Below the pieces are notes generated by a model that saw nothing but the letters and a program-made list of their open reading frames with translations, ran no database searches and was not told the origin of the DNA. A stretch of DNA of 16,446 bases from a virus (Duplodnaviria > Heunggongvirae > Uroviricota > Caudoviricetes): the IMG/VR virus record IMGVR_UViG_2636415673_000002, one strand, 5' to 3'. Positions 802 to 16,446 of this stretch are shown piece after piece. The translations under genes and the position numbers were made by a program. The first letter of the stretch is position 1, and every line of letters starts with the position of its first letter.

Positions 802-805
802 TGAT

Positions 806-1261
806 TTATTGCTGGTATTGCCAACTGCTGACTAAAGCGTACAAGTGGTTTGGAGAATAGCGCCAGCTTTCCTTCAGTTGCAGAAATTCAGCACAAAATT
901 CACTGCAAAACAGGCGATCGCGCTGTTCTTTATTACCGGTAATAATTCCTAATGCTCCGCGCCAGTCATATTTTTTGCCATCATGTTTACGGAAAAAAGT
1001 TTCCACATCCTGAAGGCTGGCCTGGAGCGGCAGCATATCCCACTTATCCGCTGGCAATGGCATTATTTTTCCGCGTACACCGCGATCGCGCAGTGATGCG
1101 GAGTAACAAAGGTAACTCTTTTCACCATGCTTAATGGCTAATTCACAGTGGGAATAATGACCACGTGTGATTTTACGGGTAAGCCAGTCAGCCAGTCGGG
1201 CAATACCACGGTGCTCTGTTCGGCCCTTATAACAAGCGAGCCAGACAGTGGTTTTACTCAT
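806..1261 (-). CDS. YiiX/YaeF-like permuted papain-fold (NlpC/P60 superfamily, Peptidase_C92-like) hypothetical protein
   Basis: 151-aa ORF whose ATG overlaps the stop of the upstream tail-fiber-assembly-like gene (ATGA at 1258-1261), so it is the last gene of the tail operon. Contains a His-before-Cys arrangement (GHYSHCEL near residue 33, then LFCSEFCAEF near residue 118) that resembles the HS-YSH and YCSE motifs of E. coli YiiX as I recall them. No signal peptide. Assignment is by motif memory only. Confidence 0.4.
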   Translation of the reverse strand: MSKTTVWLACYKGRTEHRGIARLADWLTRKITRGHYSHCELAIKHGEKSYLCYSASLRDRGVRGKIMPLPADKWDMLPLQASLQDVETFFRKHDGKKYDWRGALGIITGNKEQRDRLFCSEFCAEFLQLKESWRYSPNHLYALVSSWQYQQ

Positions 1262-1863
1262 GGTTGCCAGCCTGTTGAATAATCGTAGTCGAGCACCGCC
1301 TGAATATCGTCCAGTGCTTCCACCGCCGCGATATGGTGCTGGGCATTGGCGAACAGGCGCATATCGTGATCCATGGTGACCGATTCAAACTGGGCGGCGA
1401 TTTCGTTGGTTAACTCGATCAGACCGTTATTTTTAGTTTTCCACATTAAACCTGGAGGGATTTTTTTCTCCGCTCCCATTTTAGTGAGTGAAAGCTGTTG
1501 GATACGGCTATTTGTATCACTGTGGAAGTGATGGTTGTTGATGATGATGCAATCTACTGTTATTTCATCACGTCGATTTTTTATTTCCTGTGTAACCTGA
1601 GCCTTGGTATTCTCCAGTGCAACGGTAAATAACGTCTTGTTATACACCCATTTATCATCCTCTAAGATATAAAAGTTATCCGGAGGTGGCGTAGTGATAA
1701 TTTTGAATGGGTCAAGACATATCCAGCATGGTTTATCTTTTAACTGCCACTGCTCATCATCTACAGGAATTACTGAATCAGGTAATTCCACAGTAAAAGA
1801 GGCTGCATCTATCCAGTCAATAACCTCAAAGGTTACCGGATGGTAATACGCATATCGTGTCAT
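1258..1863 (-). CDS. Tail fiber assembly (Tfa-like chaperone) protein
   Basis: 201-aa ORF immediately downstream of the tail fiber gene with a 4-bp gap, the usual position of P2 G / lambda Tfa-type chaperones. GC content is clearly lower than the rest of the cluster (about 40 percent in sampled stretches). Call is mainly positional. Confidence 0.5.
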   Translation of the reverse strand: MTRYAYYHPVTFEVIDWIDAASFTVELPDSVIPVDDEQWQLKDKPCWICLDPFKIITTPPPDNFYILEDDKWVYNKTLFTVALENTKAQVTQEIKNRRDEITVDCIIINNHHFHSDTNSRIQQLSLTKMGAEKKIPPGLMWKTKNNGLIELTNEIAAQFESVTMDHDMRLFANAQHHIAAVEALDDIQAVLDYDYSTGWQP

Positions 1864-1867
1864 CTGT

Positions 1868-3637
1868 TCACCATAAAATTTTTATATAACCACCCAAGCC
1901 ACGACCGCCATTGCGGGCAACGTGGTTTACCCAAGTTGATCCTAAACCAGCCCCTCCCCCACCTCCCGCCCCATAACCAGAGCCGGATTGACCATCACTA
2001 TTCGCTCCTCCCAAGCCCCCTTTTCCATAAGGAGTATTTACTGCAGTTTCACCGTTGCTGGAGTATGTTTTGGGAACCTCTCCTACTGAGTTGGCGTGCG
2101 GGGAGTCGATAGTTATGATTTTACCTCCCCCCCCACCAGCACCGCCGGAAGCACTCTGTGAAGAAAAATGTGATGCTCCTCCTGGAATACCTGCTTGCCC
2201 CATTGCATCTTCGGGAATCCATCCCGGACCACGCTCTGGTATCACCTGTGTACCTCCAGCCCCTCCAGCCCCTCCGGACCCAACTGTAAAGGAATACATA
2301 TCTCCGGGTTTAACTGTGAGAGAGGCAATTATCAGTTCACCGGGTTTTCCTGCTCCGCCGCCTAGTCCAAATTTTGGATTCAGCATTGTCGAGCTTCCGG
2401 CGACTGCCCCACCTCCACCGCCCCCTCCGCCGCCTGACATTTCCAGAAGTATTTCTGTCACTCCAGCTGGCACGGTAAATGTTCCATTTGATGTATAGAA
2501 TCGGAATGAGGAATTGTTAATCCTGCTATATGCCTCACAGGCTTTATCATACGCCGCCTTCACCGCGCTCGGTGTCGCCGCCTCCGTCGTACTGTTGCTA
2601 TCCGTCGCGTTATTAAGCTTCACAATCCCTTTTTGCGACAGGGTGCCGTCTGGAACACCCGTAATCTGTCCCCATGGGTGAGTATGGTTTCCCGCAGCCT
2701 TACTATTCGCCAGGTCATATGCCGCCTTCACCGCGCTCGGTGTCGCCGCCTCCGTCGTACTGTTGCTATTGGTCGCGTTATTAAGTTTCACAATCCCTTT
2801 TTGTGTCAGGGTACCGTCAGGAATACTCGTAATCTGTCCCCAGGGGTGCGTATGACTACCCGCAGCCTTACTATTCGCCAGGTCATATGCCGCCTTCACC
2901 GCGCTCGGAGTCGCCGCCTCTGTAGTGCTGTTGCTATTGGTCGCGTTACTAAGCTTCACAATCCCTTTTTGCGTCAGTGTGCCATCTGGTATATCAGTAA
3001 TCTGACTCCAGGTATGACGATGATTTCGAGCCTCAATCAGTGCCGCTTTCACCGCTTTTGGCGTAGCCGCTTTGGTTTCGTCATCACTGTCAGTGGCGTT
3101 ACTCAACTGCGTAAAGCCTTTTTGTGTCAATGTAGCATCAGGGTGGTTAGTCGAATGTTCGTGTTCATCCAGTTGCGAATCGACGTAATCCCGTGTTGCC
3201 AGCACAATACTGGGATCAACGGTGAGTGTTACCGCAGTCGTGTTGGACACTTCCATAATGAGACGAATGCAAACTTGCTTACCGCAGCCGCCGGGTAATA
3301 GCGGTTTATACGACTCCGGGAATTTACCGATAGCAATGAGTTCACCATCGGTATCAAAAACGCCGACTTCACGTATATACCAGCCGCCGATATTTTCGGG
3401 CAGTACAAGTTCCGCAATTAACCAGCTAGGATTATTGGGCGCAACTGTTAATGTATTTAAATCACCGCGCCAGACCTCATGGCGTAATTTAGTTTGACTC
3501 GCCGTGGGTTCATAATATTGCCCACCGCCGTCTCCAACGGCCATCTTTTGCAGATGCAGTTGTTTTTTATCCGCAAGAGCACTGGCAATTTTTGCCATCC
3601 CTCTATTGGTCAGGAGGGTATAAAATTCATTATCCAT
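1868..3637 (-). CDS. Tail fiber protein (P2 gpH-like N-terminal domain, repeat shaft, glycine-rich C-terminal tip)
   Basis: 589 aa. The N-terminal roughly 160 aa carries P2 gpH hallmarks (MAVGDGGG, HEVWR, IAELVLP, ESYKP, ATRDYVD). Residues about 163-370 are 3 to 4 copies of a 56-aa repeat (TLTQKGIVKLSNATNS..TEAATPSAVKAAYDLANSKAAG.HTHPWGQIT), each with an HxH motif. Residues about 376-589 contain multiple polyglycine tracts. ATG at 3637. Confidence 0.85.
   Translation of the reverse strand: MDNEFYTLLTNRGMAKIASALADKKQLHLQKMAVGDGGGQYYEPTASQTKLRHEVWRGDLNTLTVAPNNPSWLIAELVLPENIGGWYIREVGVFDTDGELIAIGKFPESYKPLLPGGCGKQVCIRLIMEVSNTTAVTLTVDPSIVLATRDYVDSQLDEHEHSTNHPDATLTQKGFTQLSNATDSDDETKAATPKAVKAALIEARNHRHTWSQITDIPDGTLTQKGIVKLSNATNSNSTTEAATPSAVKAAYDLANSKAAGSHTHPWGQITSIPDGTLTQKGIVKLNNATNSNSTTEAATPSAVKAAYDLANSKAAGNHTHPWGQITGVPDGTLSQKGIVKLNNATDSNSTTEAATPSAVKAAYDKACEAYSRINNSSFRFYTSNGTFTVPAGVTEILLEMSGGGGGGGGGAVAGSSTMLNPKFGLGGGAGKPGELIIASLTVKPGDMYSFTVGSGGAGGAGGTQVIPERGPGWIPEDAMGQAGIPGGASHFSSQSASGGAGGGGGKIITIDSPHANSVGEVPKTYSSNGETAVNTPYGKGGLGGANSDGQSGSGYGAGGGGGAGLGSTWVNHVARNGGRGLGGYIKILW
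2528..3151 (-). repeat. Tandem 168-bp (56-codon) repeats inside the tail fiber shaft
   Basis: Near-identical DNA copies begin at 2553, 2721 and 2889 (period 168 bp), with a diverged copy near 3042. They encode the phage tail-fiber repeat with HxH motifs. Confidence 0.8.
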
Positions 3638-3639
3638 AA

Positions 3640-4272
3640 TTACTCCGGGTAAATAGATGTAATTTCAAGGCTCCATTGCCCTGTTCCGTAATAGATTGAT
3701 GTGTTTTGCTGTACTTCCCGTATCTGGAAAGGTAAAACCGACGTCAGTTCACCACCATAAAGTGCACAACCAATAACAGGAATAGCACTTTGGTTAATGA
3801 TCCAGACAATTAATGCTTCCAGTTTTGAACGTGTGTTTTTATATTCATGAATGAGTTCTACCAGATTATTGAAAAGGTTTTCATCCATGCCTTTATCCAC
3901 CAGCTCTATATCAACCTTAAAAAAATAAGCCTTCCCCCCATATTCAAACCATTCTGAAATAGTTCCTGGTAATGAGAGTATTTCCAGCACCCGCCGTACC
4001 GCCCAAATCGTTCCTTTATATTTATGCAGCTCAATGGCTTGCTTAATTAGCTCGCGCTTCTCCCGTTCATCGGTGGTAAATAACCAACCTTCCAGCCCCT
4101 GAACGTGAAATTGTTCTGCAAGGGCTGGTAATGCCGAAGCATCAACCAGGTCGACCAGATAAACCATCAACGCCGTAAGATCGAGTTGGGCAAAACGCTC
4201 GGCGGCGATATTTGCCAGAATCGAAAAACGCTCATCGCTGGCAAGCGGCGGCGGTGGCAGCAATTTATCCAT
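3640..4272 (-). CDS. Baseplate/tail protein I (P2 gpI-like)
   Basis: 210-aa ORF between the J-like gene and the fiber gene. Start overlaps the J stop by 8 nt, and the fiber ATG follows its stop with a 2-nt gap. Size and position match P2 gpI. Confidence 0.75.
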   Translation of the reverse strand: MDKLLPPPPLASDERFSILANIAAERFAQLDLTALMVYLVDLVDASALPALAEQFHVQGLEGWLFTTDEREKRELIKQAIELHKYKGTIWAVRRVLEILSLPGTISEWFEYGGKAYFFKVDIELVDKGMDENLFNNLVELIHEYKNTRSKLEALIVWIINQSAIPVIGCALYGGELTSVLPFQIREVQQNTSIYYGTGQWSLEITSIYPE

Positions 4273-5380
4273 CGCTAACTCCGGCGATCGTTACGTCTAT
4301 TGCAGTGCATTCCGCCCATTCATGCGCCTGCAAAATACGTTTTGTAGGCAAGTTCAGCACAACGTCATAGACGCCATCGACCTGTAACACTTTGATTATC
4401 TGGTTTGGCACAATGTCCTGCCCCAGATGTTTCTGCCGCTGTTGCGTCCAGAGGCTAATCGCTTTACGCGCCGCAGCCAGAGTTGTCTCCTGATCGGCGG
4501 TGGTAAACAGCGTTAGCTGCGCACGGATCTCATACGGCACTCGAAGAGCGCATTTCGCACTCACTTTGTCGGTCAGCGGACGTTTTTTCTCCTTGCTAAC
4601 CTCCTGTTCGATTTGCGCGAGCAGTTCTATTCCCGGCAGTCCGTTCAGGGTTAGCGGGTAGATCTCCACGCAGCCTTCTGGCAATCCCTCGTCCGGCCCC
4701 AGTACTGCAACGTCAATAATCGACTGGCTTACGGAAAGCGTATGAAAGCGGTAGGCACCATAGCTGCCCGCATTACTAAAGCTTTCTGGTGCCAGTTGGA
4801 TACGCTGGCGCAATGCGTCATCGCTCTCTTCACCGCAGCCGCCCGTTGACGCAGTCAGGTTGATTACGTTGATGTCATAATGACCAATCCTGTCGACCAG
4901 AGCGCTAATTTGTGCAGGCTGCCAGCCGTTACCCTGTTCACCTGCTGCGAGGCTGGTGGCAGGAACGGCGATATGCAAACTCCTGGCCGGGAGCAGAACA
5001 TCTTCATCGGTGGCGAACATCACGCTATCAGAGGCACTGGCCCGCGTCCCCTGGGGAATCAGGATATTGCTGGTATACGCACTGACAACCGAAAACTGCA
5101 ACGTCGTTTTTGCTGACTGCGCAGGCAAACGATGAACGCCCACCAGCTCCCCTAAATAATCCAGCATTGGCGCGCGGGAATACGCGACCAGGTTCTGTTT
5201 CGCCGCTTCCTGAATGGCGATGCGTACAAGGTTTTCACGATAGGCAAAAAGGTCAATCAGCAACCGCTCGGCCTGTGCCGGGTAGAGCTTTTTGCCGCTG
5301 GCATCTTCGTATTGCGCAATCATCTCGCTGGTAATTTGCGCAGGATCGCGTTCAATAAAATTGGGTTCGGCTATCGCCAT
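4265..5380 (-). CDS. Baseplate J-like protein (P2 gpJ / T4 gp6-like wedge)
   Basis: 371-aa ORF with a GGAGG Shine-Dalgarno upstream of the ATG at 5380. Positioned between the W-like and I-like genes as in P2. Confidence 0.8.
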   Translation of the reverse strand: MAIAEPNFIERDPAQITSEMIAQYEDASGKKLYPAQAERLLIDLFAYRENLVRIAIQEAAKQNLVAYSRAPMLDYLGELVGVHRLPAQSAKTTLQFSVVSAYTSNILIPQGTRASASDSVMFATDEDVLLPARSLHIAVPATSLAAGEQGNGWQPAQISALVDRIGHYDINVINLTASTGGCGEESDDALRQRIQLAPESFSNAGSYGAYRFHTLSVSQSIIDVAVLGPDEGLPEGCVEIYPLTLNGLPGIELLAQIEQEVSKEKKRPLTDKVSAKCALRVPYEIRAQLTLFTTADQETTLAAARKAISLWTQQRQKHLGQDIVPNQIIKVLQVDGVYDVVLNLPTKRILQAHEWAECTAIDVTIAGVSDG

Positions 5381-5730
5381 AACACCTCCGTTGAGTTGAT
5401 TACGCCGTCAGCGGCGCGCCATTGCACACGTAACGTCAGATGTTCACCGTCGATTACAGGTGTCACCTTCAGCAACCGGCAGCGCGGTTCCCACTGGCGG
5501 ATGGCCTCTACCGACTCCCGTACCACATGCGGGATCGCCCGCTCGATGGGATAATCGATGTAGTGCCACAAATTGCTGCCAAACAGCGGTCTGTGGGGAT
5601 CACTGCCGCGCGGTGTACGCAGAATGATGTGTATTGCCTGGTGAATATCATCCAGTCCGCAGACGTATTCTTCAGGCCGCTGCAAGGCCGGTTGCCAGTG
5701 CAGCGTTGAGGGGCGTGTTTTTGTGTTCAT
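5371..5730 (-). CDS. Baseplate protein W (GPW/gp25-like)
   Basis: 119-aa ORF containing a gpW/gp25-type motif (IHIILRTPRGSDPHRPLFGSNL). Lies immediately upstream of the J-like gene with a 10-nt overlap. The RBS is weak. Confidence 0.75.
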   Translation of the reverse strand: MNTKTRPSTLHWQPALQRPEEYVCGLDDIHQAIHIILRTPRGSDPHRPLFGSNLWHYIDYPIERAIPHVVRESVEAIRQWEPRCRLLKVTPVIDGEHLTLRVQWRAADGVINSTEVLWR

Positions 5731-5789
5731 GAGGGTATTTTCGCCCTGACCGGGCTGTGGAGATATTAAAGCGATTTAGAAAACTGATT

Positions 5790-5825
5790 GATTAAAAAGA
5801 GAAAACCCGCTATCAGGCGGGTTAA
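5790..5825 (-). terminator. Intrinsic terminator-like hairpin between the spike (V) and W genes
   Basis: Minus-strand RNA reads AACCCGC-CUGAUA-GCGGGUU followed by UUCUCUUUUUAAUC. The 7-bp GC-rich stem (plus 5804-5810 and 5817-5823) starts 5 nt after the V stop codon. Confidence 0.5.
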
Positions 5826-5828
5826 AAG

Positions 5829-6530
5829 TCAGTGTGAATGGTGGTTGGAGTTGCCACCGCTGTCCTGCAATGCGCCGCTGGCCTGAACGTTGCCGATCAC
5901 GTTGACATTGCCGGTTATCGTGGCGGCGTTACCGATGCCTCCACTTCCTGCCATCCCACCAAGCCAGGTGAGTTTTTTCATCACCGTGACGTTGCCGGTA
6001 AAGGTACTGAGCGGTGCGTCTACCGTTACAGCCATCGCTTTAACATCGACCTTACTGGCTTCAATGCTGACGTCGGTGGCTTTCACATCAACAGTGTCGG
6101 AAGTCACGGTGACGTGTTGGGCTTTAACCTCAACGTTGGGCGATATCAGGCTGGTACGGTCGATAACCTCAATCACGATTTTTTCGATACCACCGTTAAT
6201 CGTAAGCTGGTGGGTGCTGCGGTCATATTCAAACGCTGCGCCATCGGAAAACTGGACATAGCGTTTGTCGCGCGATGCTACTGGCGCGGTATCTACCGTT
6301 GAATATACTGCGCCCAGCACCACGCCATCTTCACCGTTATCATCCAGCAGAACCTCCACCTGCTCTCCCATGTCCGGTAGCCAGTAGTCTTTATTGTCCT
6401 GGGAATTGCGTTGAAGTACCGCAAGCCAGTTGCTCTTCAGATTGTCACACTCTGGAAGCGTGACTCGCACCCGAACGCTGGTTTCGTCAATATCGCTGAT
6501 AATCCCCGTTTGCCGGGTTACTCCTTTCAT
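5829..6530 (-). CDS. Baseplate spike protein (P2 gpV-like)
   Basis: 233-aa ORF with a strong AGGAGG RBS. N-terminal OB-fold-like region followed by a repetitive beta-helix-like segment (VxVxA repeats, e.g. VDVKATDVSIEASKVDVKAMAVTVDA) and a His-rich C-terminus (NHHSH), consistent with metal-binding spike apexes described for P2 gpV. Confidence 0.8.
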   Translation of the reverse strand: MKGVTRQTGIISDIDETSVRVRVTLPECDNLKSNWLAVLQRNSQDNKDYWLPDMGEQVEVLLDDNGEDGVVLGAVYSTVDTAPVASRDKRYVQFSDGAAFEYDRSTHQLTINGGIEKIVIEVIDRTSLISPNVEVKAQHVTVTSDTVDVKATDVSIEASKVDVKAMAVTVDAPLSTFTGNVTVMKKLTWLGGMAGSGGIGNAATITGNVNVIGNVQASGALQDSGGNSNHHSH

Positions 6531-6539
6531 ATTTCCTCC

Positions 6540-7580
6540 TTACTGGCTGGTCGCTGGCCCGCGTGACACGTCGATTTCAGTGGTATAGCCGCTGCGCACA
6601 AAACTGTGAGTAGATTTATCAATCAGCCACTGACCGGAAAGCACGCCAAAATCGGTCAGTTCAATTTTATTGCCCGCCGTCAGTTCCGGGCAGCCCATCA
6701 TTGTGAGCGTTCCGGTTTGCTGATATTCGTTGTGGCTGTCGAGTGCAGCGTTGGCCTTTGCCTGTGCTGCGCCAATGTCCGTCGCCCGACTGTTCAGTTT
6801 TAGCGTGTCGGCACTGGTGCCGACTCCACGGGCAGACGGTTTTTGCTGGCTGTCGTGGGTGTAGATAACCAGTTCTTTTTTCTTACTATTTTGATGCTGT
6901 ACGGTGGCGTTTTTGTAGATACGGTTAATGGTATCTTTGAAGGTGAAATGCGAAACGTCTTTGCGGTCGATCGTTTTTACCGGTGCCAGGCAGCGCAGCG
7001 TGGGTAAATGTGAAAAAATCAGCTCTTTTGTCGTCACTTTTACGGCATAACCATATTCACTGGCCAGACGTTTGAGAAATCCAACATCGGTTTCACCATA
7101 CTGCGTTACCCGGTCGATGGTGAGCGGCTCGATTTTGCCCACCAGTTTCAGACCGTGCGTTTGCGCGATACGGCTGGCGATAGCCGAAAGCGTCGTCTCT
7201 TCAAAGCCCTGGCTGTTACGCGTGCGTAGCGCCTGATTGACGGAAGTGGCGATGCCATCAATATTTACCGTAGAAGGTGGCGATGAAATATCAATTTTAT
7301 CAATAATATACTGACCACAATCGAGCAGCTTTTCCCCCTGATAACCCATATGCAGCGCCAGCGTATCGCCTTTGCCGGGATACCACTCTTTTATCCAGCG
7401 TCCATCGGTGTCATCCAGTGTAATCGCGATGGTATCCGACTCGTTTTTAATACTGTCCTGGTAACTGATGCTGGTGACATAAGGCGTGATGTCATAAGTG
7501 ATATCTTTATGCCCATACCAGAGGGTAAAAATGGGCGTGAGTGTTGCAAAGACGCCGCCAGTTACGCTTATCTCAGCCAT
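6540..7580 (-). CDS. Tail hub protein (P2 gpD-like, late control gene D family)
   Basis: 346-aa ORF immediately upstream of the spike gene. Size and position match P2 gpD. Confidence 0.75.
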   Translation of the reverse strand: MAEISVTGGVFATLTPIFTLWYGHKDITYDITPYVTSISYQDSIKNESDTIAITLDDTDGRWIKEWYPGKGDTLALHMGYQGEKLLDCGQYIIDKIDISSPPSTVNIDGIATSVNQALRTRNSQGFEETTLSAIASRIAQTHGLKLVGKIEPLTIDRVTQYGETDVGFLKRLASEYGYAVKVTTKELIFSHLPTLRCLAPVKTIDRKDVSHFTFKDTINRIYKNATVQHQNSKKKELVIYTHDSQQKPSARGVGTSADTLKLNSRATDIGAAQAKANAALDSHNEYQQTGTLTMMGCPELTAGNKIELTDFGVLSGQWLIDKSTHSFVRSGYTTEIDVSRGPATSQ

Positions 7581-7777
7581 GGTGGGATCTCCGATAAGGT
7601 TTTATTGACGGAAATGACCGGAATGATGAGCTGAATACCGGAAGGCAGTACCGGATAAATGGCGACATGTGGATTGGCTGCGATAATGCGTTCATAAGCC
7701 AGTGCATCGCCGTAGTAATGCCAGGCCAGGTTATCCCAGCGTTCGCCATCGGTGGTGATATGTTCAAGGTATCGCAT
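7568..7777 (-). CDS. Tail protein X (P2 gpX-like, LysM-like)
   Basis: 69-aa ORF with the gpX-like pattern (W-x-YYG ... AANP ... VLPSG..L.IP). Start overlaps the gpU-like stop, and its 3' end overlaps the D-like start. Confidence 0.7.
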   Translation of the reverse strand: MRYLEHITTDGERWDNLAWHYYGDALAYERIIAANPHVAIYPVLPSGIQLIIPVISVNKTLSEIPPWLR

Positions 7778-11081: not shown

Positions 11082-11169
11082 AATTGTTTCTCTTATAGAT
11101 TGGTGATGGCCCGCTGGTTAGTTTTCTGAAAAATGGGCTGGGAAGAAATAAACCTGGCGGGCTTTAAAG

Positions 11170-11196
11170 GACTCGCAGACATCAGGTCTGCGAGTC
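11170..11196 (-). other. Perfect 11-bp stem-loop in the chaperone/tape-measure intergenic region
   Basis: gactcgcagac-atcag-gtctgcgagtc. On the minus RNA it is followed by CUUUAAAG, which is only weakly U-rich. Candidate attenuator, RNA stability element or frameshift-associated structure. Confidence 0.45.
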
Positions 11197-11269
11197 ATAT
11201 TCGATCTTTATTTGAGCGCTGGCTTCATCCAGCCAGTTGCTAAAGTCATCGACGGTAAGGGCGTCTATC

Positions 11270-11587
11270 TCACTGGGCGGAAAGCGAAACCATCTCGCCA
11301 GTAACGCCATTGCCTGCCATAGCAGGGGAGGATTCTGTAACCACGGTAAGCATGGATTGAAATCGTTTCTGCAATGCCTGGTAATCCAGCAAATCCATTT
11401 CAGCTAAATCTTCTGGCACCAGTCCGGTCATTGCCGCCATTAGCGGTTCATCCCACTCTTCTGGCTTTTCGCTGATCCGGCGCGCGTTGCGCATATCTTT
11501 TACTTTCAGGCGACGTAATTGCAGAGTGTTAATTACGTCTCCCGCCGCTGAAGTAAACGGGAACTGTAAGATATAATGCTCTTTCAT
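11270..11587 (-). CDS. Tail assembly chaperone (P2 gpE-like)
   Basis: 105-aa acidic ORF between the tube and tape measure genes, the canonical position of the E/E-prime (G/GT) chaperone. AAGGA RBS 7 nt upstream of the ATG. Confidence 0.6.
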   Translation of the reverse strand: MKEHYILQFPFTSAAGDVINTLQLRRLKVKDMRNARRISEKPEEWDEPLMAAMTGLVPEDLAEMDLLDYQALQKRFQSMLTVVTESSPAMAGNGVTGEMVSLSAQ

Positions 11588-11613
11588 TTTGTATCCTTAT
11601 TTATTTTGCGAAG

Positions 11614-11633
11614 TTCGGGGCCGTAGCCCCGAA
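11614..11633 (-). other. Stem-loop between tube and chaperone genes
   Basis: ttcggggc-cgta-gccccgaa (8-bp stem) directly after the tube stop codon. No U-tract follows on the minus RNA, so it is not a classical terminator. Possible RNA processing or stability element. Confidence 0.35.
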
Positions 11634-11637
11634 TAAC

Positions 11638-12162
11638 TTAGCCACCGATGTTATTGCGATAGGTACTTAATTGATCCACGCCGTTAACCCGAAAAATATT
11701 CGCCATATAATCAAGTTCAAGCAGCGTTTCACCATCGACCACTTGTTTAATATAAGTGCAACCAAAGGCGCTGCTGAATTCCGGGTTTTCATTTTGTTTA
11801 AATGTTCCCAGTGGATTCTTTTTAAACATGACAGTCAAATGAGTGACTAACGCTAATTGATTCGCTTTCCCCTGGGAGTTATAGCAATCAATACTGGAGC
11901 GGCACTGTAATGCTACCGCCTGCCACGGGTTTGCCGTTTTACGCATGACGTCCTGATAAAAGGAGTTCCATTTAATTTCCCCTTCCAGTTTATCGAACCC
12001 TGCCGGGAGTTCGATTTTGCCGACCATGCCCAGTGCTTTATGCTCCTGCATAATTAAACTGACATCCGGCAATTTAATTTCGGTTGCACGACCTAAAAGG
12101 TTATTACCATCGAGATAAATATTTGCGTTGGTAATACGGTTAATTTGAATTTTTCCAGCCAT
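11638..12162 (-). CDS. Tail tube protein (P2 FII-like)
   Basis: 174 aa. The C-terminus (ELDYMANIFRVNGVDQLSTYRNNIGG) matches the conserved VNGVD...R.NIG end of P2 FII tube proteins. TAATG overlap with the sheath stop. Confidence 0.85.
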   Translation of the reverse strand: MAGKIQINRITNANIYLDGNNLLGRATEIKLPDVSLIMQEHKALGMVGKIELPAGFDKLEGEIKWNSFYQDVMRKTANPWQAVALQCRSSIDCYNSQGKANQLALVTHLTVMFKKNPLGTFKQNENPEFSSAFGCTYIKQVVDGETLLELDYMANIFRVNGVDQLSTYRNNIGG

Positions 12163-13583
12163 TAGCTATTGCTCTCCAGAGAGACTAAATATTCAGAAGT
12201 AATTTCAGTTTCAAACGTCAGACGTTCCAGCGGCGGCGGCGGGGTGAATTTATAGCTAAGCAATAAATGCCCAGCGCTGAGTTCAGTCGGTGAATTTCGC
12301 GCCGGATCGTACCAGCACTCAAAGCCAAGCAGTGCGCCGTCGGCAATCAGCTTACGGCCCCAGGTATTTACTGATTCGGTCAGGGCATCAATCAGCGCCT
12401 GATTAATCGGCATATCAATATACTGCTGACTGAAATAACGGATTGACTCATTAATTACATCGCCTGTCCGGCGGACGTTTTCAAAGTTACGCATATGGGT
12501 CACGGTAGGCCATGCCGCTGTGCGGTTGCCCCACAAGCGCAGACCAGAGCCGTAACTATTGAAAATAGTGGTAATGCCGTTTTCGTTGAGCTGATTCACT
12601 TCGCTTTGAGGATCATCAATCATTGCGGAAAGCGAACGTTCAATACCGGTAATACCCTGAATTTCCTGGTTTGAGTTGCTCCACCAGAAACCTTTTTCGA
12701 GGTCTACTTTGGCACGTAGCCCGGCAGCGCGCGAAGAGAGCGGTTCGAGAACTTCCTGGTTAGTGATGCCATCGTAAACTTTGACGTGTGGGTAACATAA
12801 ACGCGCACGATCAGAGCTGGTATTGAAGTTGATAGCGCCTTGCGAACTGCGTCCTGCCAATACCTGCTGGAATGTCGTCCCAATCGGGGCATCAATGTAG
12901 GTAATCGCACCGAGTTTTTCCGCTTGTGCAATCAGCTCGGTAGTTACTGATTTTTGCGTACAGAACACGGGAGCAAGCAGGATTTTGGCGTAGAAACCAT
13001 ACAGGTTATAGGTGTCCTGAAGGAGTTTCATCCCTGTGCGGTCGCCTGCGGTATTTACGGCACCGATAATATCGGCTGCGGTGACCTTTGTAGGATCAAC
13101 ATAGGTATACGTCGCGTAAACCTTCGCCCCTGCCGGGATTTCAGTTCCGGTACGGGTTATAACGCCATCTGCGGCATTAACATTGTAAGATGTATTTTTG
13201 TACGTAGTGGAACTGGTACCTGGTCTTAATATTACTGAACTTACTCCCGGATGAGCTAATTTAGCTTTATCGGCACTATTGAACGTAATGGTTTCATTGG
13301 CAACATGCAGTCCATGTTTTACCGGATCCAGCACATTAATTACCACCACCGTACCGGCACCGTGGTCATAAATCGCCTTCAGCGCCTGTGGGATCGTAAA
13401 GTTAGCCTGAGTTGAGCCAAACTGCGCAGCATCGCTTTCAGAAAGGCATAATGTTGGTTTATTTACCGGACCACAGGGGGCCGTACCGATTAAAGCGATG
13501 ACGGCGGATTTTACCGCTTTAACGGGACGCTGGCCGGTTTCAATTTCAATGGTTTCTACACCGTGCAGATAATTAGCTGCCAT
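12162..13583 (-). CDS. Contractile tail sheath protein (P2 FI-like)
   Basis: About 473 aa with sheath hallmarks (N-terminal YLHGVET, GLRAKVD.EKG, LWGNRT, C-terminal YKFTPPPPLERLT). The track ORF begins at a TTG at 13589. The ATG at 13583 with an upstream GGAGAGGA RBS is the more likely start. Confidence 0.85.
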   Translation of the reverse strand: MAANYLHGVETIEIETGQRPVKAVKSAVIALIGTAPCGPVNKPTLCLSESDAAQFGSTQANFTIPQALKAIYDHGAGTVVVINVLDPVKHGLHVANETITFNSADKAKLAHPGVSSVILRPGTSSTTYKNTSYNVNAADGVITRTGTEIPAGAKVYATYTYVDPTKVTAADIIGAVNTAGDRTGMKLLQDTYNLYGFYAKILLAPVFCTQKSVTTELIAQAEKLGAITYIDAPIGTTFQQVLAGRSSQGAINFNTSSDRARLCYPHVKVYDGITNQEVLEPLSSRAAGLRAKVDLEKGFWWSNSNQEIQGITGIERSLSAMIDDPQSEVNQLNENGITTIFNSYGSGLRLWGNRTAAWPTVTHMRNFENVRRTGDVINESIRYFSQQYIDMPINQALIDALTESVNTWGRKLIADGALLGFECWYDPARNSPTELSAGHLLLSYKFTPPPPLERLTFETEITSEYLVSLESNS

Positions 13584-13770
13584 GTACAATTTCCTCTCCG
13601 TTATTTTGTTCTTCCTGAGTGATGACAGAAGTCAGGTGATTGCGGGCAATCATGGTCATGACCCACTCGTTGTCTTCTGGCAGATCAATTTCACTGTTCG
13701 GCCACAATAAGATTTCTTGTCCGTCGGCAAGGGTGACGCCGCTTGCCGGGCCGTTGTAGATGTATTTCAT
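13573..13770 (-). CDS. Small hypothetical protein of the tail module
   Basis: 65-aa ORF with a GAGGAAA RBS. ATGA overlap with the upstream gene, and its 3' end overlaps the sheath start. No recognizable motif. Confidence 0.4.
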   Translation of the reverse strand: MKYIYNGPASGVTLADGQEILLWPNSEIDLPEDNEWVMTMIARNHLTSVITQEEQNNGEEIVHGS

Positions 13771-14222
13771 TCAGTTTCCTCGTAATTAACTTCCGTAAGT
13801 AGGGGAAGATCCGTGTTTTCCTGTTCAGCGATAAACAGCGAGCTGGTCGCCATTTCCAGGATGTAGCGGCAGAAACCGCCGCTCTCACCCGTATTAATTT
13901 CTTTTTCAAGCCAAAGAAGACGATCGCAATCAGGAAGCTGAAGGCCACCCAATGCGCTGCGTATGCGGTCCAGTGCGTTTAACGCATCACAATTTTTGCC
14001 AACAATAACGGTGGCGGTTAAGCGGAGCGTTTGCTGTTGCACGAGAGCATCACTGCTTTCAGGCATGGCAAATAGAGAACCGCTATAATTAATAATCACT
14101 GTAACTTGCTGCGTCTGCGGAATATATTTATGGGTATCAACCGATGAAATAGATACATCCATTTCGGGATTCTGTTCACGTAATCTGGTCACAACAGAAT
14201 TCATTACTGATAAAATTTCCAT
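13767..14222 (-). CDS. Putative tail completion / terminator-like protein
   Basis: 151-aa ORF with an AAGGAA RBS, immediately upstream of the sheath gene, where tail completion proteins of P2 gpR/gpS size are commonly encoded. Call is from position and size only. Confidence 0.4.
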   Translation of the reverse strand: MEILSVMNSVVTRLREQNPEMDVSISSVDTHKYIPQTQQVTVIINYSGSLFAMPESSDALVQQQTLRLTATVIVGKNCDALNALDRIRSALGGLQLPDCDRLLWLEKEINTGESGGFCRYILEMATSSLFIAEQENTDLPLLTEVNYEETE

Positions 14223-14339
14223 ATAGGGTGTTCCTTAATTATCGCTGATTCGTTAACGCTCACTTCGTTATCGTTGAAATGTATTCTGACGTAATGAAGG
14301 TGGAGAATCTTTTAATCTGCTTTAGAGAAAAAATTGAAT

Positions 14340-14654
14340 TTAATAGCTACCGCGTTGTAATAGCTCTATTTTGCTATATAAGGCATCCAGCTTTGCTTCT
14401 AATACTGCCTGGCCACGAAGATAATCTTCTCTGCGGACATAATGCAGCGGAAGCTCGGCACGAAATTCGAGAAATTCTCTTTCCAGTTTCGACCAACTTG
14501 TTTCTGATTCCCGGCGCGCGTTTTCCAGAGATTCAAAACGCTCATTAAGTCTTTTTTCAATTTGCGCTAACAGCAATTTTCCGGCAGCAAACATTAATCC
14601 AACGAAGGAAAGCATAAGGGAGATCACTTCCCAAAAATCGATACTGAGTTTCAT
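14340..14654 (-). CDS. Membrane-anchored coiled-coil protein, possible i-spanin (Rz-like)
   Basis: 104 aa with an N-terminal TM helix (FWEVISLMLSFVGLMFAAGKLLL) followed by a charged coiled-coil-like region. Directly downstream of the endolysin gene, with a GAGGGG RBS. Confidence 0.45.
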   Translation of the reverse strand: MKLSIDFWEVISLMLSFVGLMFAAGKLLLAQIEKRLNERFESLENARRESETSWSKLEREFLEFRAELPLHYVRREDYLRGQAVLEAKLDALYSKIELLQRGSY

Positions 14655-14666
14655 CGGCCCCTCTGA

Positions 14667-15272
14667 TTAATGAAGACAGCTTGCCTGCCCCCAGAGTAGG
14701 TAGCGGGCGGCATGTTGATAGAGGATCATCTTCGGATAGCGACGATTTTCTCGCCAGTTCGTGGCGCTGCGCCCGGCGTTGACTCGCTCGACATGACCAA
14801 ACCAGCTAGTGGCATCTAACCCTTTGGATGCAGCCAGTTTTTTATCCCGGTTAACCCATCCCTGACCGCCGTTATAGGCGCTAAGGGTAAACGCCATACG
14901 CTGACAATCATTTTTCGCTGAGATGTTTTTCCACAAATGCTGGTCATATTGCACCAGTGCGCGAATCGCCCAGGTTGGGTTATAGGGCTTATTTTCACGT
15001 AGCTGCGGATACAACAGGCTTATCCATGTCGCTGTGGCAGGCATAAATTGCGCCATGCCTTGTGCGCCAACGGGGGAACGTACCATTGGCTGCCAGGCGG
15101 ACTCCTGGTGTAATTGCCCGGCAAAGTCGGCCACTGGGGCGTTCAGTCCCCAGACTTCTCGAGCGGTACGAATTAGTTCGTTTCGCCATGCCAGAGAGGC
15201 TCGCGGCGGTTCAGAGGCGTTAAGAGGGAAAAGAACGAAAATAATCATAGACGCGATATATTTCAGCCACAT
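14667..15272 (-). CDS. Endolysin: lytic transglycosylase (SLT domain) with N-terminal signal peptide or SAR domain
   Basis: SLT-type motifs (QESAW and GAQGMAQFMP). Hydrophobic N-terminus MWLKYIASMIIFVLFPLNA. ATG at 15272 lies 2 nt after the holin stop codon, and a GTG start one codon upstream would overlap that stop. The longer ORF to 15365 would overlap the holin gene by about 90 nt and is rejected. Confidence 0.75.
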   Translation of the reverse strand: MWLKYIASMIIFVLFPLNASEPPRASLAWRNELIRTAREVWGLNAPVADFAGQLHQESAWQPMVRSPVGAQGMAQFMPATATWISLLYPQLRENKPYNPTWAIRALVQYDQHLWKNISAKNDCQRMAFTLSAYNGGQGWVNRDKKLAASKGLDATSWFGHVERVNAGRSATNWRENRRYPKMILYQHAARYLLWGQASCLH

Positions 15273-15274
15273 CA

Positions 15275-15562
15275 CTATAGCCCTAAGGCGACGGAAAGAC
15301 AGACGGCGGCAACGATGATGGCGCGGCGAATCATTGCCGCCGCGCAGCAACGCGGTTCCTTCCATGGGCTAAAAGAGTCAGGCCGTGCCCATGGGAACAA
15401 ACTGCGATCGAGCCAGTATCCCAGCACCGCGGAAAGCGAAACCAGGCTTAGTTTATAAATGACGACCGGGATCTGTGCTGAAGAGGTCCAGCCGATCACG
15501 ACAAACAGCGCGACGGAAGCGACCAGCCAACCGGAAAGCCGGGGAAGAGTGACTTTTTTCAT
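15275..15562 (-). CDS. Putative holin (small multi-TM membrane protein)
   Basis: 95 aa with 2-3 predicted TM segments. First gene of the operon with an AGGAG RBS 7 nt upstream of the ATG. Translationally coupled to the endolysin gene. Confidence 0.5.
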   Translation of the reverse strand: MKKVTLPRLSGWLVASVALFVVIGWTSSAQIPVVIYKLSLVSLSAVLGYWLDRSLFPWARPDSFSPWKEPRCCAAAMIRRAIIVAAVCLSVALGL

Positions 15563-15858
15563 ACGGTATCTCCTGATAAGTGAGCGTTTAGTGTCGCCAG
15601 AACCCGCCAGTGAAGAATGAAAAAAGCTTTAATAAATAACTTTAAAAAATAGATTCTCTATAAATGAACATGCCCGCTAATAAATCCACTCAGCAATTAA
15701 AGAGCAAAAGGTGACCTCGCGAATAAGCGCGTCATTATGCAGGGAAAAGATGATGGTGAATCGTAGGAATAGTCAGTAGTTATTTGATTTTTAAAGTTTG
15801 TTTAAGAAAGTCAGCGACTGTGAGGGAAACGATCTTTTTACACTACAGGTAAAAATAA

Positions 15859-15878
15859 TACTGTATGTGCATACAGTA
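15859..15878. promoter_or_regulatory. LexA (SOS) box
   Basis: TACTGTATGTGCATACAGTA compared with the E. coli LexA consensus TACTGTATATATATACAGTA: both 8-nt arms are perfect (CTGT-N8-ACAG), with mismatches only in the central 4 bp. It lies in the AT-rich divergent region between the Mor-like gene and the lysis/tail operon, flanked by TTTACA hexamers on both strands (15837-15842 on +, 15882-15887 on -). Confidence 0.7.
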
Positions 15879-15899
15879 TCGTGTAAAATGATACTCCTG

Positions 15900-15930
15900 T
15901 TGACAAGAAACATAACGCAAACAATATATT
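15900..15930 (+). promoter_or_regulatory. Candidate sigma-70 promoter for the Mor-like gene
   Basis: TTGACA at 15900-15905 followed 17-19 bp later by an AATATA/TATATT -10-like element, about 170 bp upstream of the Mor-like ATG. Prediction by eye only. Confidence 0.3.
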
Positions 15931-16098
15931 TATTTAGTGAATTTATGCGTTCATTAATATTAAGAATTTATATTTCTGGTGATTGTTTATTTGTTTGTTG
16001 AATGTATTGAGTAGCAGTAATGACAACTGCTTAGCGTATATCCGTGGTTTTACACGCATCGGGTCTTATTCAGGATGCAAGATATATGGAGATGAAAA

Positions 16099-16446
16099 AT
16101 GATACGAAAATCAAAAGAGATGGTCCGGACACCGGAGATCATTAACGACCTGGCTTTTCATGCATCGCAAGTTCTGATTGAAAGCATCAATCTCGACAGT
16201 TCATCGGCGGAAAATGTGGGCTTTGCCATTGCCGACCGAATGATGCGCAACTGGGGCGGGCAAAGCATTTATTTCCCAAAAGGGATCTCCGGACGGGCGT
16301 CGGAGCGTGACTACCAAATCTATAGCGAGTGCGATGGGCGCAACTACGCCGAATTAGCGAAGAAATATAATCTGACGCTGCAATGGATTTATAAGATAGT
16401 GAAACGCGTACATGCGGAAAAGCAACAGCGCCGCAGTAATTCGTAA
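16099..16446 (+). CDS. Mor/C-family transcriptional activator (phage Mu middle/late activator family)
   Basis: 115 aa. The C-terminal region (NWGGQSIYFPKGISGRASERDYQIYSECDGRNYAELAKKYNLTLQWIYKIVKR) matches the Mor family pattern as recalled from Mu Mor (GGQ.IY.P.G ... F.GRN..EL...Y..T...IYK). GGAG RBS 7 nt upstream. Divergent from the lysis/tail operon. Confidence 0.75.
   Translation: MIRKSKEMVRTPEIINDLAFHASQVLIESINLDSSSAENVGFAIADRMMRNWGGQSIYFPKGISGRASERDYQIYSECDGRNYAELAKKYNLTLQWIYKIVKRVHAEKQQRRSNS

What the first reader, a model, noticed from the sequence alone, without database searches (positions are those of the whole stretch)
806..16446. Headless contractile-tail locus: lysis cassette fused directly to a complete P2-type tail module under a Mor-type activator
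Every component needed for a contractile tail (sheath, tube, chaperone, tape measure, U, X, D hub, V spike, W/J/I wedge, fiber, fiber chaperone) is present and apparently intact, with tight translational coupling throughout. It is preceded by holin, endolysin and an Rz-like gene. Only two small ORFs separate lysis from the sheath, and no capsid, portal, terminase or protease genes occur where a prophage would carry them. That is the architecture of R-type tailocins (phage tail-like bacteriocins). The tail genes are P2-like in sequence but arranged FI-FII-E-T-U-X-D-V-W-J-I-H, not in the split P2 order, and the regulator is Mu-type Mor rather than P2 Ogr, so the locus is a mosaic.
Basis: partly seen in the sequence, partly recalled or inferred. 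Interest (0 to 1): 0.75.

Follow-up and report, generated by a model that had tools for sequence, protein, structure and literature searches.

The report
Headless Mu-type tail cluster, E. coli
This E. coli chromosome segment encodes a complete contractile phage tail plus cell-lysis genes but no phage head, most likely an SOS-inducible, untested protein weapon (tailocin) related to carotovoricin, and it matches a Salmonella region so far filed as a dead prophage remnant.

Summary
Window 806-16446 carries 19 intact, tightly packed minus-strand genes: holin, endolysin, a full contractile tail and a fibre. A divergent Mor-family gene sits beside them. In the source genome (E. coli 2021CK-01784) the island lies between an NTase gene and lysC, and core genes flank it for 16 kb on each side. 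It has no capsid, portal, terminase, integrase or transposase.

The interpretation needs three corrections.
- **Origin:** the cluster is not P2-derived and not a mosaic. It is collinear, gene for gene, with BcepMu-like transposable phages, in which this gene order and Mor are native.
- **Lysis genes:** the "Rz-like" gene is a BcepMu gp25 homologue, and no spanin is present.
- **Small ORFs:** the larger of the two ORFs before the sheath gene has a tail-terminator fold.

The locus is the orthologue of Salmonella "Def4" (STM4198-4219). The same headless layout next to lysC occurs in Superficieibacter and Phytobacter. It is under strong purifying selection.

Three sequence features suggest a LexA → Mor → lysis-plus-tail cascade:
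- an invariant LexA box, found only in this clade;
- a phage-type late-promoter motif before the tail genes;
- a related conserved A/T-rich block before holin.

Carotovoricin is a separate, proven offshoot of the same phage family. Verdict: a probable R-type tailocin, a new member of a known kind. No particles or killing have been shown.

The parts
779..803 (.). 10-bp-stem hairpin between the convergent NTase and tail operons. It is a probable bidirectional terminator and marks the left edge of the variable slot.
   Evidence: Terminator scan. Homology with cluster-free strains ends just after it.
806..1261 (-). Last gene of the operon (151 aa). It is a probable permuted papain/NlpC-P60-like cysteine hydrolase, not a fibre chaperone.
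   Evidence: No Pfam hit. Matches phrog_1128. Invariant Y36-S-H38-C-E40 and C119-S120 across 28 homologues. AF2 model pLDDT 84; its only significant PDB fold match is 3kw0 'cysteine peptidase', E 2e-4. 77% identical to Salmonella STM4198.
1258..1863 (-). DUF4376 tail-fibre assembly/chaperone protein. Its N-terminal half varies together with the fibre tip.
   Evidence: Pfam DUF4376. PHROG tail families. Strain E50 has a different N-terminus.
1868..3637 (-). Tail fibre (589 aa): conserved N-terminal collar domain, four fibre repeats and a glycine-rich C-terminal tip. This tip type occurs at this locus in only 6 E. coli genomes.
   Evidence: Pfam Phage_tail_fib and Phage_fiber_2 x4. Only the N-terminal 36-61% is conserved in orthologues. 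Distribution.
3640..5730 (-). Baseplate wedge genes: gpI-like (3640-4272), gpJ-like (4265-5380) and gpW/gp25-like (5371-5730).
   Evidence: Pfam. Collinear with BcepMu gp51, gp50 and gp49.
5804..5823 (-). Hairpin followed by a T-run in the V-W gap. The same gap carries gtrABC in Salmonella Def4.
5829..7777 (-). Spike gpV-like (5829-6530), hub gpD-like (6540-7580) and gpX (7568-7777).
   Evidence: Pfam. Collinear with BcepMu gp48, gp47 and gp46.
7777..8730 (-). gpU-domain tail protein with a roughly 190-aa coiled-coil extension, a feature native to BcepMu gp45.
   Evidence: Pfam GpU. phrog_788 matches full length..
8730..11081 (-). Tape measure protein (783 aa).
   Evidence: Pfam PhageMin_Tail..
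11182..11587 (-). Tail assembly chaperone (11270-11587) plus an overlapping open frame (11182-11403, in the +1/-2 frame). The overlap probably encodes a frameshift extension of the E' type.
   Evidence: Pfam Phage_TAC_7. Alternative frame open, with a weak Phage_P2_GpE match, E 0.0026.
11638..13589 (-). Tube (11638-12162) and sheath (12162-13589).
   Evidence: Pfam. 69-75% and 71-75% identical to BcepMu/PhiKM.
13573..13770 (-). 65-aa homologue of BcepMu gp38. It occupies the position of Mu gp38.
   Evidence: phrog_895. Weak pairwise similarity to Mu gp38, E 0.006.
13767..14222 (-). Tail terminator (BcepMu gp37 family).
   Evidence: Pfam Gp37. AF2 model pLDDT 78. Fold matches: PDB 2gjv (S. Typhimurium protein of unknown function, 60% identical; identification as STM4215 is from memory), phage Mu terminator 9khy, pyocin R2 collar 6u5f, lambda gpU and T4 gp15.
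14283..14324 (-). Predicted Mor-dependent tail promoter: TAAAGCAGATTAAAAG, 20 nt, then CAGAAT.
   Evidence: The same motif and spacing occur upstream of the BcepMu holin and head-protease genes, in PhiKM, in carotovoricin and in Salmonella/Phytobacter.
14340..14654 (-). Membrane-anchored coiled-coil protein, homologue of BcepMu gp25. It is not Rz.
   Evidence: 46-50% identical to BcepMu gp25 and the PhiKM homologue. No match to Mu gp25.
14667..15562 (-). Lysis genes: SLT-domain endolysin with an N-terminal hydrophobic segment (14667-15272, read by eye from the translation) and holin (15275-15562).
   Evidence: Pfam SLT and Holin_2-3. PHROG endolysin and holin. dN/dS 0.074-0.075 against Salmonella.
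15590..15646 (-). Predicted Mor-dependent lysis promoter: invariant block TTTAAAGTTATTTATTAAAG (15627-15646) followed by a conserved GAYACT (15590-15595).
   Evidence: Nearly invariant in 6 orthologous regions from 4 genera (one G/C difference in two sequences). Unique in the window, 0 of 200 shuffles match. Related TTAAA half-site motifs lie upstream of holin in phages and carotovoricin.
15859..15878 (.). LexA (SOS) box TACTGTATGTGCATACAGTA, overlapped by conserved sigma-70-like promoters in both directions.
   Evidence: The only CTGT-N8-ACAG in the window. The CTGT and ACAG arms are invariant in all 6 orthologous regions, while the surrounding sequence is not. The two promoters are the only positionally conserved ones. 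The box is absent from the phage, carotovoricin, Brenneria and Chromobacterium loci.
16099..16446 (+). Mor/C-family late transcription activator, divergent from the cluster. Its stop codon lies 54 nt from the lysC stop.
   Evidence: Pfam Mor, E 6e-38. 49% identical to BcepMu gp01. 89% identical to STM4219 with dN 0.067. Context.

Best explanation
The locus is a domesticated tail module of a BcepMu-like (Mu-type) transposable phage. It has been stripped of its early genes, transposase, repressor, head and packaging genes, and spanin. It most likely makes an R-type tailocin.

Proposed mechanism:
1. DNA damage leads to RecA-stimulated LexA cleavage. This step is established SOS biology.
2. LexA leaves the box at 15859-15878 and frees the overlapping promoter or promoters, so Mor is made. 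This step is inferred.
3. Mor activates two late promoters that carry TTAAA half-site boxes. One lies before holin-endolysin-gp25. The other lies before terminator-gp38-sheath-tube-...-fibre. This is inferred from the motif shared with the parental phages.
4. Headless contractile tails assemble, capped by the gp37-type terminator.
5. Holin and the SLT endolysin lyse the producer cell and release the tails.
6. The variable fibre tip selects the target strain, which dies when the tail contracts and punctures its envelope. This step is by analogy with carotovoricin and R-pyocins.

Shown here: gene content, headless context, ancestry, purifying selection and conservation of the regulatory motifs. 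Not shown: particles, killing, LexA or Mor binding, and which of the two promoters is used.
For: **Gene content**
- A complete tail set plus lysis genes.
- A protein with a tail-terminator fold.

**Headless context**
- No head, packaging, integration or transposition genes. Core genes flank the island.
- The slot boundaries are precise and carry no att repeats.

**Ancestry**
- Gene-for-gene collinearity with BcepMu and PhiKM. The absent genes are gp02-20, gp23/24 and gp26-36.

**Conservation across genera**
- The same headless layout sits next to lysC in Salmonella (Def4), in two Superficieibacter species and in Phytobacter. Close gp37 homologues also occur in E. albertii (their genomic context was not examined).
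- ORFs are full length with no stops in E. coli E50, Salmonella and both Superficieibacter species.

**Selection**
- dN/dS is 0.035-0.24 for the 17 cluster genes for which dS could be computed, E. coli against Salmonella. dS is 0.65-1.9, similar to the flanking core genes at 0.69-1.6.
- Between the two E. coli alleles, omega is 0.15.
- The terminator diverges about 3 times faster than the sheath in this clade, against 1.5 times in complete phages. That fits loss of the head-joining constraint.

**Regulatory motifs**
- The LexA box is invariant in its CTGT and ACAG arms and specific to this clade.
- The phage late-promoter motif is retained directly in front of the terminator gene. In complete phages it sits in front of the head protease gene. 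The same retention is seen in carotovoricin and in the Brenneria elements.

**Fibre**
- The fibre tip and its chaperone are swapped between alleles, as expected for a specificity determinant.

**Precedent**
- Carotovoricin is a proven tailocin described as Mu-type and SOS-regulated. It shares 72-76% sheath identity and the same architecture.
Against: - No experimental evidence for particles or killing from this locus turned up in the searchable literature. The Salmonella orthologue is described there only as a prophage remnant.
- The Rz/Rz1 spanin present in BcepMu and in carotovoricin is missing, and no lipobox ORF exists in the lysis region.
- Only about 172-196 of 5,426 complete E. coli genomes carry the cluster. 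Some copies are interrupted by IS elements.
- The direction of the LexA-controlled promoter is ambiguous.
- The holin-proximal box has atypical spacing.
- Alleles within E. coli differ far more (dS 0.19) than the adjacent lysC gene (1.3% nucleotide difference). Transfer by recombination, rather than strict vertical descent, is therefore involved.
- dN/dS cannot by itself separate selection as a tailocin from selection in a phage ancestor if the lineages were acquired independently.
Confidence: 0.7

Rival explanations
1. It is an inert, decaying prophage remnant. A BcepMu-like prophage lost its head and early regions by deletion, and the remaining genes persist only because too little time has passed. 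This is the standard reading of Salmonella 'Def4'.
For: - The literature labels the Salmonella orthologue a prophage remnant.
- The spanin is lost.
- Distribution in E. coli is patchy, about 3% of genomes, with IS insertions in some copies.
- Phytobacter J may be broken.
- A terminator is deleted in the window allele.
Against: - Nineteen ORFs remain intact in at least three genera at saturating synonymous divergence, with dN/dS 0.035-0.24.
- The promoter motifs and the LexA box are conserved inside otherwise divergent intergenic DNA.
- Deletions removed exactly the head, packaging and early genes and nothing needed for a tail.
- Three lineages keep the late promoter fused to the terminator gene.
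Confidence: 0.2
2. It is a functional tail factory with a purpose other than killing bacteria. It might supply tails in trans to tail-less capsid-forming elements. It might drive SOS-triggered explosive lysis that releases other goods. It might act on eukaryotic cells like an eCIS.
For: - The lysis cassette and tail genes are under selection, but the target is unknown.
- An extra hydrolase-like gene ends the operon.
- Salmonella carries it in a host-associated pathogen together with gtr genes.
Against: - No effector or toxin cargo, AAA+ ATPase or Afp16-type cap gene was detected.
- The fibre is a typical phage fibre with a swappable tip and chaperone.
- The head-joining adaptor gp36 is deleted, and the terminator evolves as if freed from head binding.
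- The closest characterised relative is a bacteriocin.
Confidence: 0.07

Closest known systems
Salmonella enterica 'Def4' / BTP6 / 'BcepMu-like' remnant (STM4198-STM4219)
   Same: - It is the orthologue: same chromosomal site (yjbD ... lysC), same gene order and same divergent Mor.
- It has the same LexA box and late-promoter motifs.
- Amino-acid identity is 60-97% in non-fibre genes.
- Its terminator homologue appears to have a crystal structure, PDB 2gjv (60% identical to the window protein; STM4215 identity from memory).
   Different: - Salmonella has gtrABC inserted in the V-W gap.
- It has a different fibre tip and chaperone N-terminus.
- It keeps a terminator after the gp25 homologue that the window allele lacks.
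- The accessible literature treats it as a remnant, not as a tailocin.
Carotovoricin (Pectobacterium), a proven Mu-type R-tailocin
   Same: - It derives from the same Bcepmuvirus-like family, with sheath identity of 72-76%.
- It is headless and has a holin-SLT-gp25 lysis cassette.
- The late promoter is fused to the gp37 terminator gene.
- It is SOS-inducible.
   Different: - It sits at a different locus, between tolC_2 and ybiB.
- It forms a separate clade nested among complete phages, so head loss was probably independent.
- It retains Rz and gp26.
- It has no LexA box and no Mor gene within the fetched locus. From memory (Liu et al. 1994, cited), its control runs through RdgA/RdgB, and RdgB is Mor-like. 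This was not tested here.
Bcepmuvirus phages (BcepMu, phiE255, Escherichia phage PhiKM, Klebsiella phage KP12)
   Same: - All retained genes are collinear homologues.
- The Mor-type activator sits at the end of the early arm.
- The same late-promoter motif is present.
   Different: These phages also carry a transposase, repressor, Rz/Rz1, terminase, portal, protease, capsid and head-tail adaptor. All of these are absent here.
R-type pyocins, kosakonicin and the ST131 'tailocin' (P2-type)
   Same: - They share the contractile-tail protein families (sheath, tube, U, X, D, V, W, J, I).
- The concept is the same: lysis-dependent release and SOS induction.
   Different: - These elements are P2-derived, with the split P2 gene order and PrtN/PrtR- or Ogr-type control.
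- Kosakonicin is described as homologous to phage P2.
- The ST131 element sits inside a region described as coding for a complete bacteriophage structure, elsewhere in the genome.

Membership tests
R-type tailocin (phage tail-like bacteriocin) | Complete contractile-tail gene set, including a terminator and fibre | tested here: met
   Pfam, PHROG and fold evidence for sheath, tube, chaperone, tape measure, U, X, D, V, W, J, I, fibre, fibre chaperone and terminator. All are intact ORFs.
R-type tailocin (phage tail-like bacteriocin) | No capsid, portal, terminase, replication or integration genes in the element | tested here: met
   The island is bounded by the NTase gene and lysC, with core genes for 16 kb on both sides. 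Homologues of BcepMu gp26-36 and gp02-20 are absent.
R-type tailocin (phage tail-like bacteriocin) | Own lysis cassette for release | tested here: inconclusive
   Holin, an SLT endolysin and a gp25 homologue are present and conserved. The spanin Rz/Rz1 is absent.
R-type tailocin (phage tail-like bacteriocin) | Stress (SOS)-linked regulation | tested here: inconclusive
   A conserved LexA box overlaps conserved promoters next to mor. This is a sequence prediction only.
R-type tailocin (phage tail-like bacteriocin) | Production of headless contractile particles that kill related strains | not testable with these tools
   This needs induction, EM and overlay assays.
P2-type (Peduovirus-derived) tail module | Closest relatives are P2-like phages, with the split P2 gene order (V-W-J-I-H-G ... 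FI-FII-E-T-U-D) and an Ogr-type activator | tested here: not met
   The best phage matches are Bcepmuvirus at 71-75%. The order is collinear with BcepMu. The activator belongs to the Mor family.
Bcepmuvirus-derived (Mu-type) tail cluster | Collinear homologues of BcepMu gp21, 22, 25 and 37-51 plus Mor gp01, and the shared late-promoter motif | tested here: met
Carotovoricin orthologue | Same locus (tolC_2/ybiB) and the same clade as the Pectobacterium clusters | tested here: not met
   This element is lysC-linked. It forms a separate clade in a neighbour-joining tree of five proteins. It lacks Rz and gp26.
Salmonella Def4 orthologue | Same flanking genes, gene order and regulatory region | tested here: met
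eCIS (Afp/PVC-type) | AAA+ ATPase, cargo toxins, Afp16-like cap, no lysis cassette | tested here: not met
   No such domains were found in any ORF. A lysis cassette is present.

The most novel reading that the evidence does not exclude
An old tailocin that enteric bacteria built from a Mu-type transposable phage and then rewired to their own SOS repressor. The phage repressor and early operon were replaced by a single LexA box controlling mor. The element has been kept by selection at the lysC site across Escherichia, Salmonella, Superficieibacter and Phytobacter, roughly since those genera diverged. Carotovoricin and the Brenneria elements would be independent repeats of the same head loss. 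If true, the 'Def4 remnant' present in all complete S. Typhimurium genomes checked in 2016 is a working weapon, and its gtr insertion may serve as self-protection.
Probability: 0.45. Interest if true: 0.6.

Novelty: new member of a known kind. Interest (0 to 1): 0.45.

Why it matters
No natural R-type tailocin of E. coli or Salmonella appears in the tailocin reviews I could read. The Salmonella orthologue is filed only as a dead remnant.

If the locus works, three things follow.
- The two best genetic model bacteria would gain a native, minimal (about 15.6 kb), SOS-wired tailocin with naturally swappable fibres. That would be useful for studying tailocin ecology in the gut and as an engineering chassis.
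- It would be a clean case of a phage regulatory cascade being handed over to a host repressor.
- It would be a case of repeated, convergent head loss in one phage family that each time preserves the late promoter.

It would also assign a function to PDB 2gjv, a protein currently labelled as of unknown function.

Tried and rejected
- **Prior descriptions.** The ST131 'tailocin' is a P2-like element inside a region described as a complete phage, at another site. Kosakonicin is P2-like. Searches on lysC, tailocin, Def4 and STM42xx terms returned only remnant listings.
- **Rz/Rz1.** The 104-aa gene matches BcepMu gp25, not gp23. No lipobox ORF was found.
- **Direct similarity to Mu proteins.** None for gp25 or gp37, and only a weak match for gp38. 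The terminator role therefore rests on the fold search.
- **tRNA, Rfam families and att repeats at the borders.** None found.
- **Glycine-rich fibre tip against phage genomes.** No match, possibly because of low-complexity masking.
- **NCBIfam on the small proteins.** Nothing useful.
- **'E50 fibre is a pseudogene'.** Rejected. The ORF is open and 527 aa long.
- **Large E. coli prevalence.** The figure of 1,635 genomes was rejected. Nearly all of those hits are to the NTase gene only.
- **Direction of the LexA-controlled promoter.** PWM scoring could not settle it.

Full report
**What is there**

The window holds 19 co-directional minus-strand ORFs from 15562 down to 806, plus a plus-strand ORF at 16099-16446. 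Pfam assigns them as follows:

| Coordinates | Assignment |
|---|---|
| 15275-15562 | holin |
| 14667-15272 | SLT-domain endolysin |
| 13767-14222 | Gp37-family protein |
| 12162-13589 | sheath |
| 11638-12162 | tube |
| 11270-11587 | tail assembly chaperone |
| 8730-11081 | tape measure |
| 7777-8730 | GpU-like |
| 7568-7777 | X |
| 6540-7580 | D |
| 5829-6530 | V |
| 5371-5730 | W |
| 4265-5380 | J |
| 3640-4272 | I |
| 1868-3637 | tail fibre |
| 1258-1863 | DUF4376 fibre-assembly protein |
| 16099-16446 (+) | Mor |

Most genes overlap or abut. An overlapping open frame at 11182-11403 weakly matches Phage_P2_GpE (E 0.0026). It probably encodes the usual chaperone frameshift product.

**Genomic context**

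The window is 100% identical to the chromosome of E. coli 2021CK-01784. The order there is rluF, yjbD, slipin, NTase, the cluster, Mor, lysC, pgi. Core genes extend 16 kb on both sides. There are no capsid, portal, terminase, integrase or transposase genes.

Of the 1,635 E. coli genomes that match the window, nearly all match only the NTase gene (1-807). About 172-196 of 5,426 carry the tail cluster. In strain 165 the same slot holds a zeta-toxin gene instead. Homology between carriers and non-carriers ends just after the hairpin at 779-803 and resumes at the lysC stop codon. No att-like repeats are present.

**Ancestry: BcepMu-like, not P2, and not a mosaic**

The nearest complete phages by sheath sequence are Bcepmuvirus: PhiKM and KP12 at 74%, BcepMu and phiE255 at about 71%. 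Every gene from holin to I, plus Mor, has a collinear homologue in BcepMu and PhiKM. BcepMu natively has the order sheath-tube-chaperone-tape measure-U-X-D-V-W-J-I-H. Its Mor/C-type activator (gp01) sits at the far end of a leftward early arm.

Relative to BcepMu, this locus lacks three blocks:
- gp02-gp20: early genes, transposase and repressor
- gp23/gp24: Rz/Rz1
- gp26-gp36: terminase, portal, protease, capsid and head-tail adaptor

The 104-aa 'Rz-like' gene is the gp25 homologue (46-50% identity). No lipobox ORF exists in the lysis region.

The larger of the two small ORFs before the sheath gene is a tail terminator. Its AF2 model (pLDDT 78) matches PDB 2gjv, a 60%-identical Salmonella typhimurium protein of unknown function (its identity as STM4215 is from memory). 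It also matches the phage Mu terminator, the pyocin R2 and diffocin collars, lambda gpU and T4 gp15.

**Orthologues and relatives**

Salmonella carries the same cluster at the same site, as STM4198-STM4219. The literature calls it Def4, BTP6 or a 'BcepMu' remnant, and reports it as ancestral to serovar Typhimurium. The main difference is a gtrABC insertion in the V-W gap.

A scan of species-representative genomes was classified by tblastn with head, early and tail queries. The results fall into five groups:
- **lysC-linked headless elements.** Two Superficieibacter species and Phytobacter massiliensis have the identical layout: Mor divergent, then holin-SLT-gp25-terminator-gp38-sheath. In all three, lysC lies next to Mor. 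Close gp37 homologues also occur in E. albertii (their genomic context was not examined).
- **Carotovoricin.** Six Pectobacterium species and Samsonia have a headless version that keeps Rz and gp26. In the one Pectobacterium locus whose flank was examined (P. aroidearum L017), a TolC-like gene lies upstream. This is carotovoricin, described elsewhere as a Mu-type tailocin.
- **Brenneria.** The elements are headless but keep the transposase and repressor.
- **Chromobacterium.** These have a shorter Mor-gp38-sheath form.
- **Complete prophages.** Many other genomes hold full versions.

In a neighbour-joining tree of five proteins, the lysC-linked elements form their own clade. Carotovoricin and the Brenneria elements group with different complete phages. 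This suggests at least three independent head losses. The tree has no support values.

**Selection**

- *E. coli against Salmonella.* dN/dS is 0.035-0.24 for the 17 cluster genes for which dS could be computed. dS is 0.65-1.9, comparable to flanking lysC, pgi, yjbD and rluF at 0.69-1.6.
- *Intactness.* All non-fibre ORFs are full length without stops in E. coli E50, Salmonella and both Superficieibacter species. Phytobacter J may be interrupted.
- *Between the two E. coli alleles.* Omega is 0.15 at dS 0.19. The adjacent lysC gene differs by only 1.3%, so alleles move by recombination.
- *Terminator rate.* The terminator diverges about 3 times faster than the sheath in this clade, against 1.5 times among complete phages at equal sheath divergence. 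That fits release from head joining.
- *Fibre.* Only the N-terminal part is conserved. The tip and the chaperone N-terminus are swapped between alleles. The E50 fibre, annotated as a pseudogene, is an open 527-aa ORF.

**Regulation (predicted)**

Aligning the mor-holin intergenic region from six elements in four genera shows low overall conservation, with two nearly invariant blocks.

*Block 1* is CATTTTACAC-N-ATACTGTATgcAtATACAGT.
- It contains a canonical LexA box at window 15859-15878. This is the only CTGT-N8-ACAG in the window.
- The box is near-consensus in Salmonella. It is absent from the phage, carotovoricin, Brenneria and Chromobacterium loci.
- The only positionally conserved sigma-70-like promoters in the region overlap this box. 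One faces the late genes (TTTACA-16-TACAGT). The other faces mor (CTGTAT-17-TAAAAT). I cannot tell which is used.

*Block 2* is TTTAAAGTTATTTATTAAAG at 15627-15646. It is unique in the window and lies upstream of a conserved GAYACT and the holin ribosome-binding site.

*A related motif* is TAAAGCAGATTAAAAG, then 20 nt, then CAGAAT. It lies in the gap before the terminator gene at 14283-14324. The same motif with the same spacing occurs in these places:
- before the BcepMu holin gene and before the BcepMu head-protease gene;
- at the equivalent sites in PhiKM, and before the protease gene in a Trabulsiella prophage;
- before gp37 in carotovoricin and Brenneria, with related box variants before their holin genes;
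- before gp37 in Salmonella and Phytobacter.

So the headless elements kept the phage's head-and-tail promoter and lost the head genes on both sides of it. Most orthologues also have a terminator hairpin between gp25 and this promoter. The window allele has lost that hairpin.

The simplest circuit is that LexA represses mor, and Mor then turns on a lysis unit and a tail unit.

**Comparison and verdict**

By architecture, ancestry, selection and regulatory logic, this is an R-type tailocin locus of the Mu/BcepMu type. It is orthologous to Salmonella Def4 and parallel to carotovoricin. It is not P2-type and not a mosaic.

I found no report of particles or killing from this locus. The reviews I read list no natural E. 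coli or Salmonella tailocin. From memory, and untested here, the old 'colicin 15' tail-like particles of E. coli 15 show that such particles exist in the species.

The main doubts are four: the missing spanin, the low prevalence in E. coli, the ambiguous promoter direction and the lack of any experiment. I rate it a new member of a known kind, of moderate interest.

Noticed in passing
window 1-792; L001 14868-16792; L003 4328-5254: The RlaP-family NTase and an upstream slipin gene form a separate island found in about 1,635 of 5,426 E. coli genomes. The slot between its terminator and lysC holds either the tail cluster or, in strain 165, a zeta-toxin gene.
   Followed up: partly
window 806-1261: The last operon gene has invariant SHCE and CS motifs. 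Its only PDB fold match is a B. cereus 'cysteine peptidase' (3kw0). It is probably a permuted papain/NlpC-P60-like hydrolase. Database relatives are named 'enoyl-CoA hydratase', which looks wrong. Its role in a tail operon is unknown.
   Followed up: partly
window 13767-14222; PDB 2gjv: The 2006 crystal structure 2gjv, a Salmonella typhimurium 'protein of unknown function' (STM4215 by my recollection), is 60% identical to the window protein. It shares the tail-terminator fold of the phage Mu terminator, the pyocin R2 collar and lambda gpU.
   Followed up: yes
window 5731-5828; L002 11785-15109: The V-W gap contains a hairpin with a T-run inside the operon. In Salmonella the same gap holds the O-antigen glucosylation genes gtrABC, which could act as self-protection. 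This is speculation.
   Followed up: no
window 14223-14339 vs L004 16741-16884: The window allele lacks a terminator hairpin that follows the gp25 homologue in E50, Salmonella, Superficieibacter and Phytobacter. Read-through from the lysis unit into the tail unit may therefore be greater in this allele.
   Followed up: partly
window 15789-15805: A third Mor-box-like motif, TTAAACAAACTTTAAAA, lies on the late strand between the LexA box and the holin promoter. It is conserved in E. coli, Salmonella and Phytobacter but not in Superficieibacter. No convincing -10 element follows it.
   Followed up: partly
L010, L013 (Brenneria); L028-L030 (Chromobacterium): Other head-less derivatives of the same phage family exist. 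The Brenneria elements keep the transposase, TnpB and repressor. The Chromobacterium elements show Mor followed within about 1 kb by gp38-sheath, with no detectable lysis cassette.
   Followed up: no
L032, L037 (Arthrobacter sp. GMC3 / Y81 contigs): Low-coverage contigs (2-7x) in two Arthrobacter assemblies carry BcepMu-type tail genes that are 82-87% identical to the E. coli sheath. This is most likely assembly contamination.
   Followed up: no
L004 4463-6043: RefSeq annotates the fibre of strain E50 as two pseudogene fragments. The reading frame is open for 527 aa and ends in a His-rich tip.
   Followed up: yes
window 11182-11403: The putative chaperone frameshift extension lies in the +1/-2 frame relative to the chaperone gene, not the usual -1 frame. 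No slippery site was identified.
   Followed up: partly
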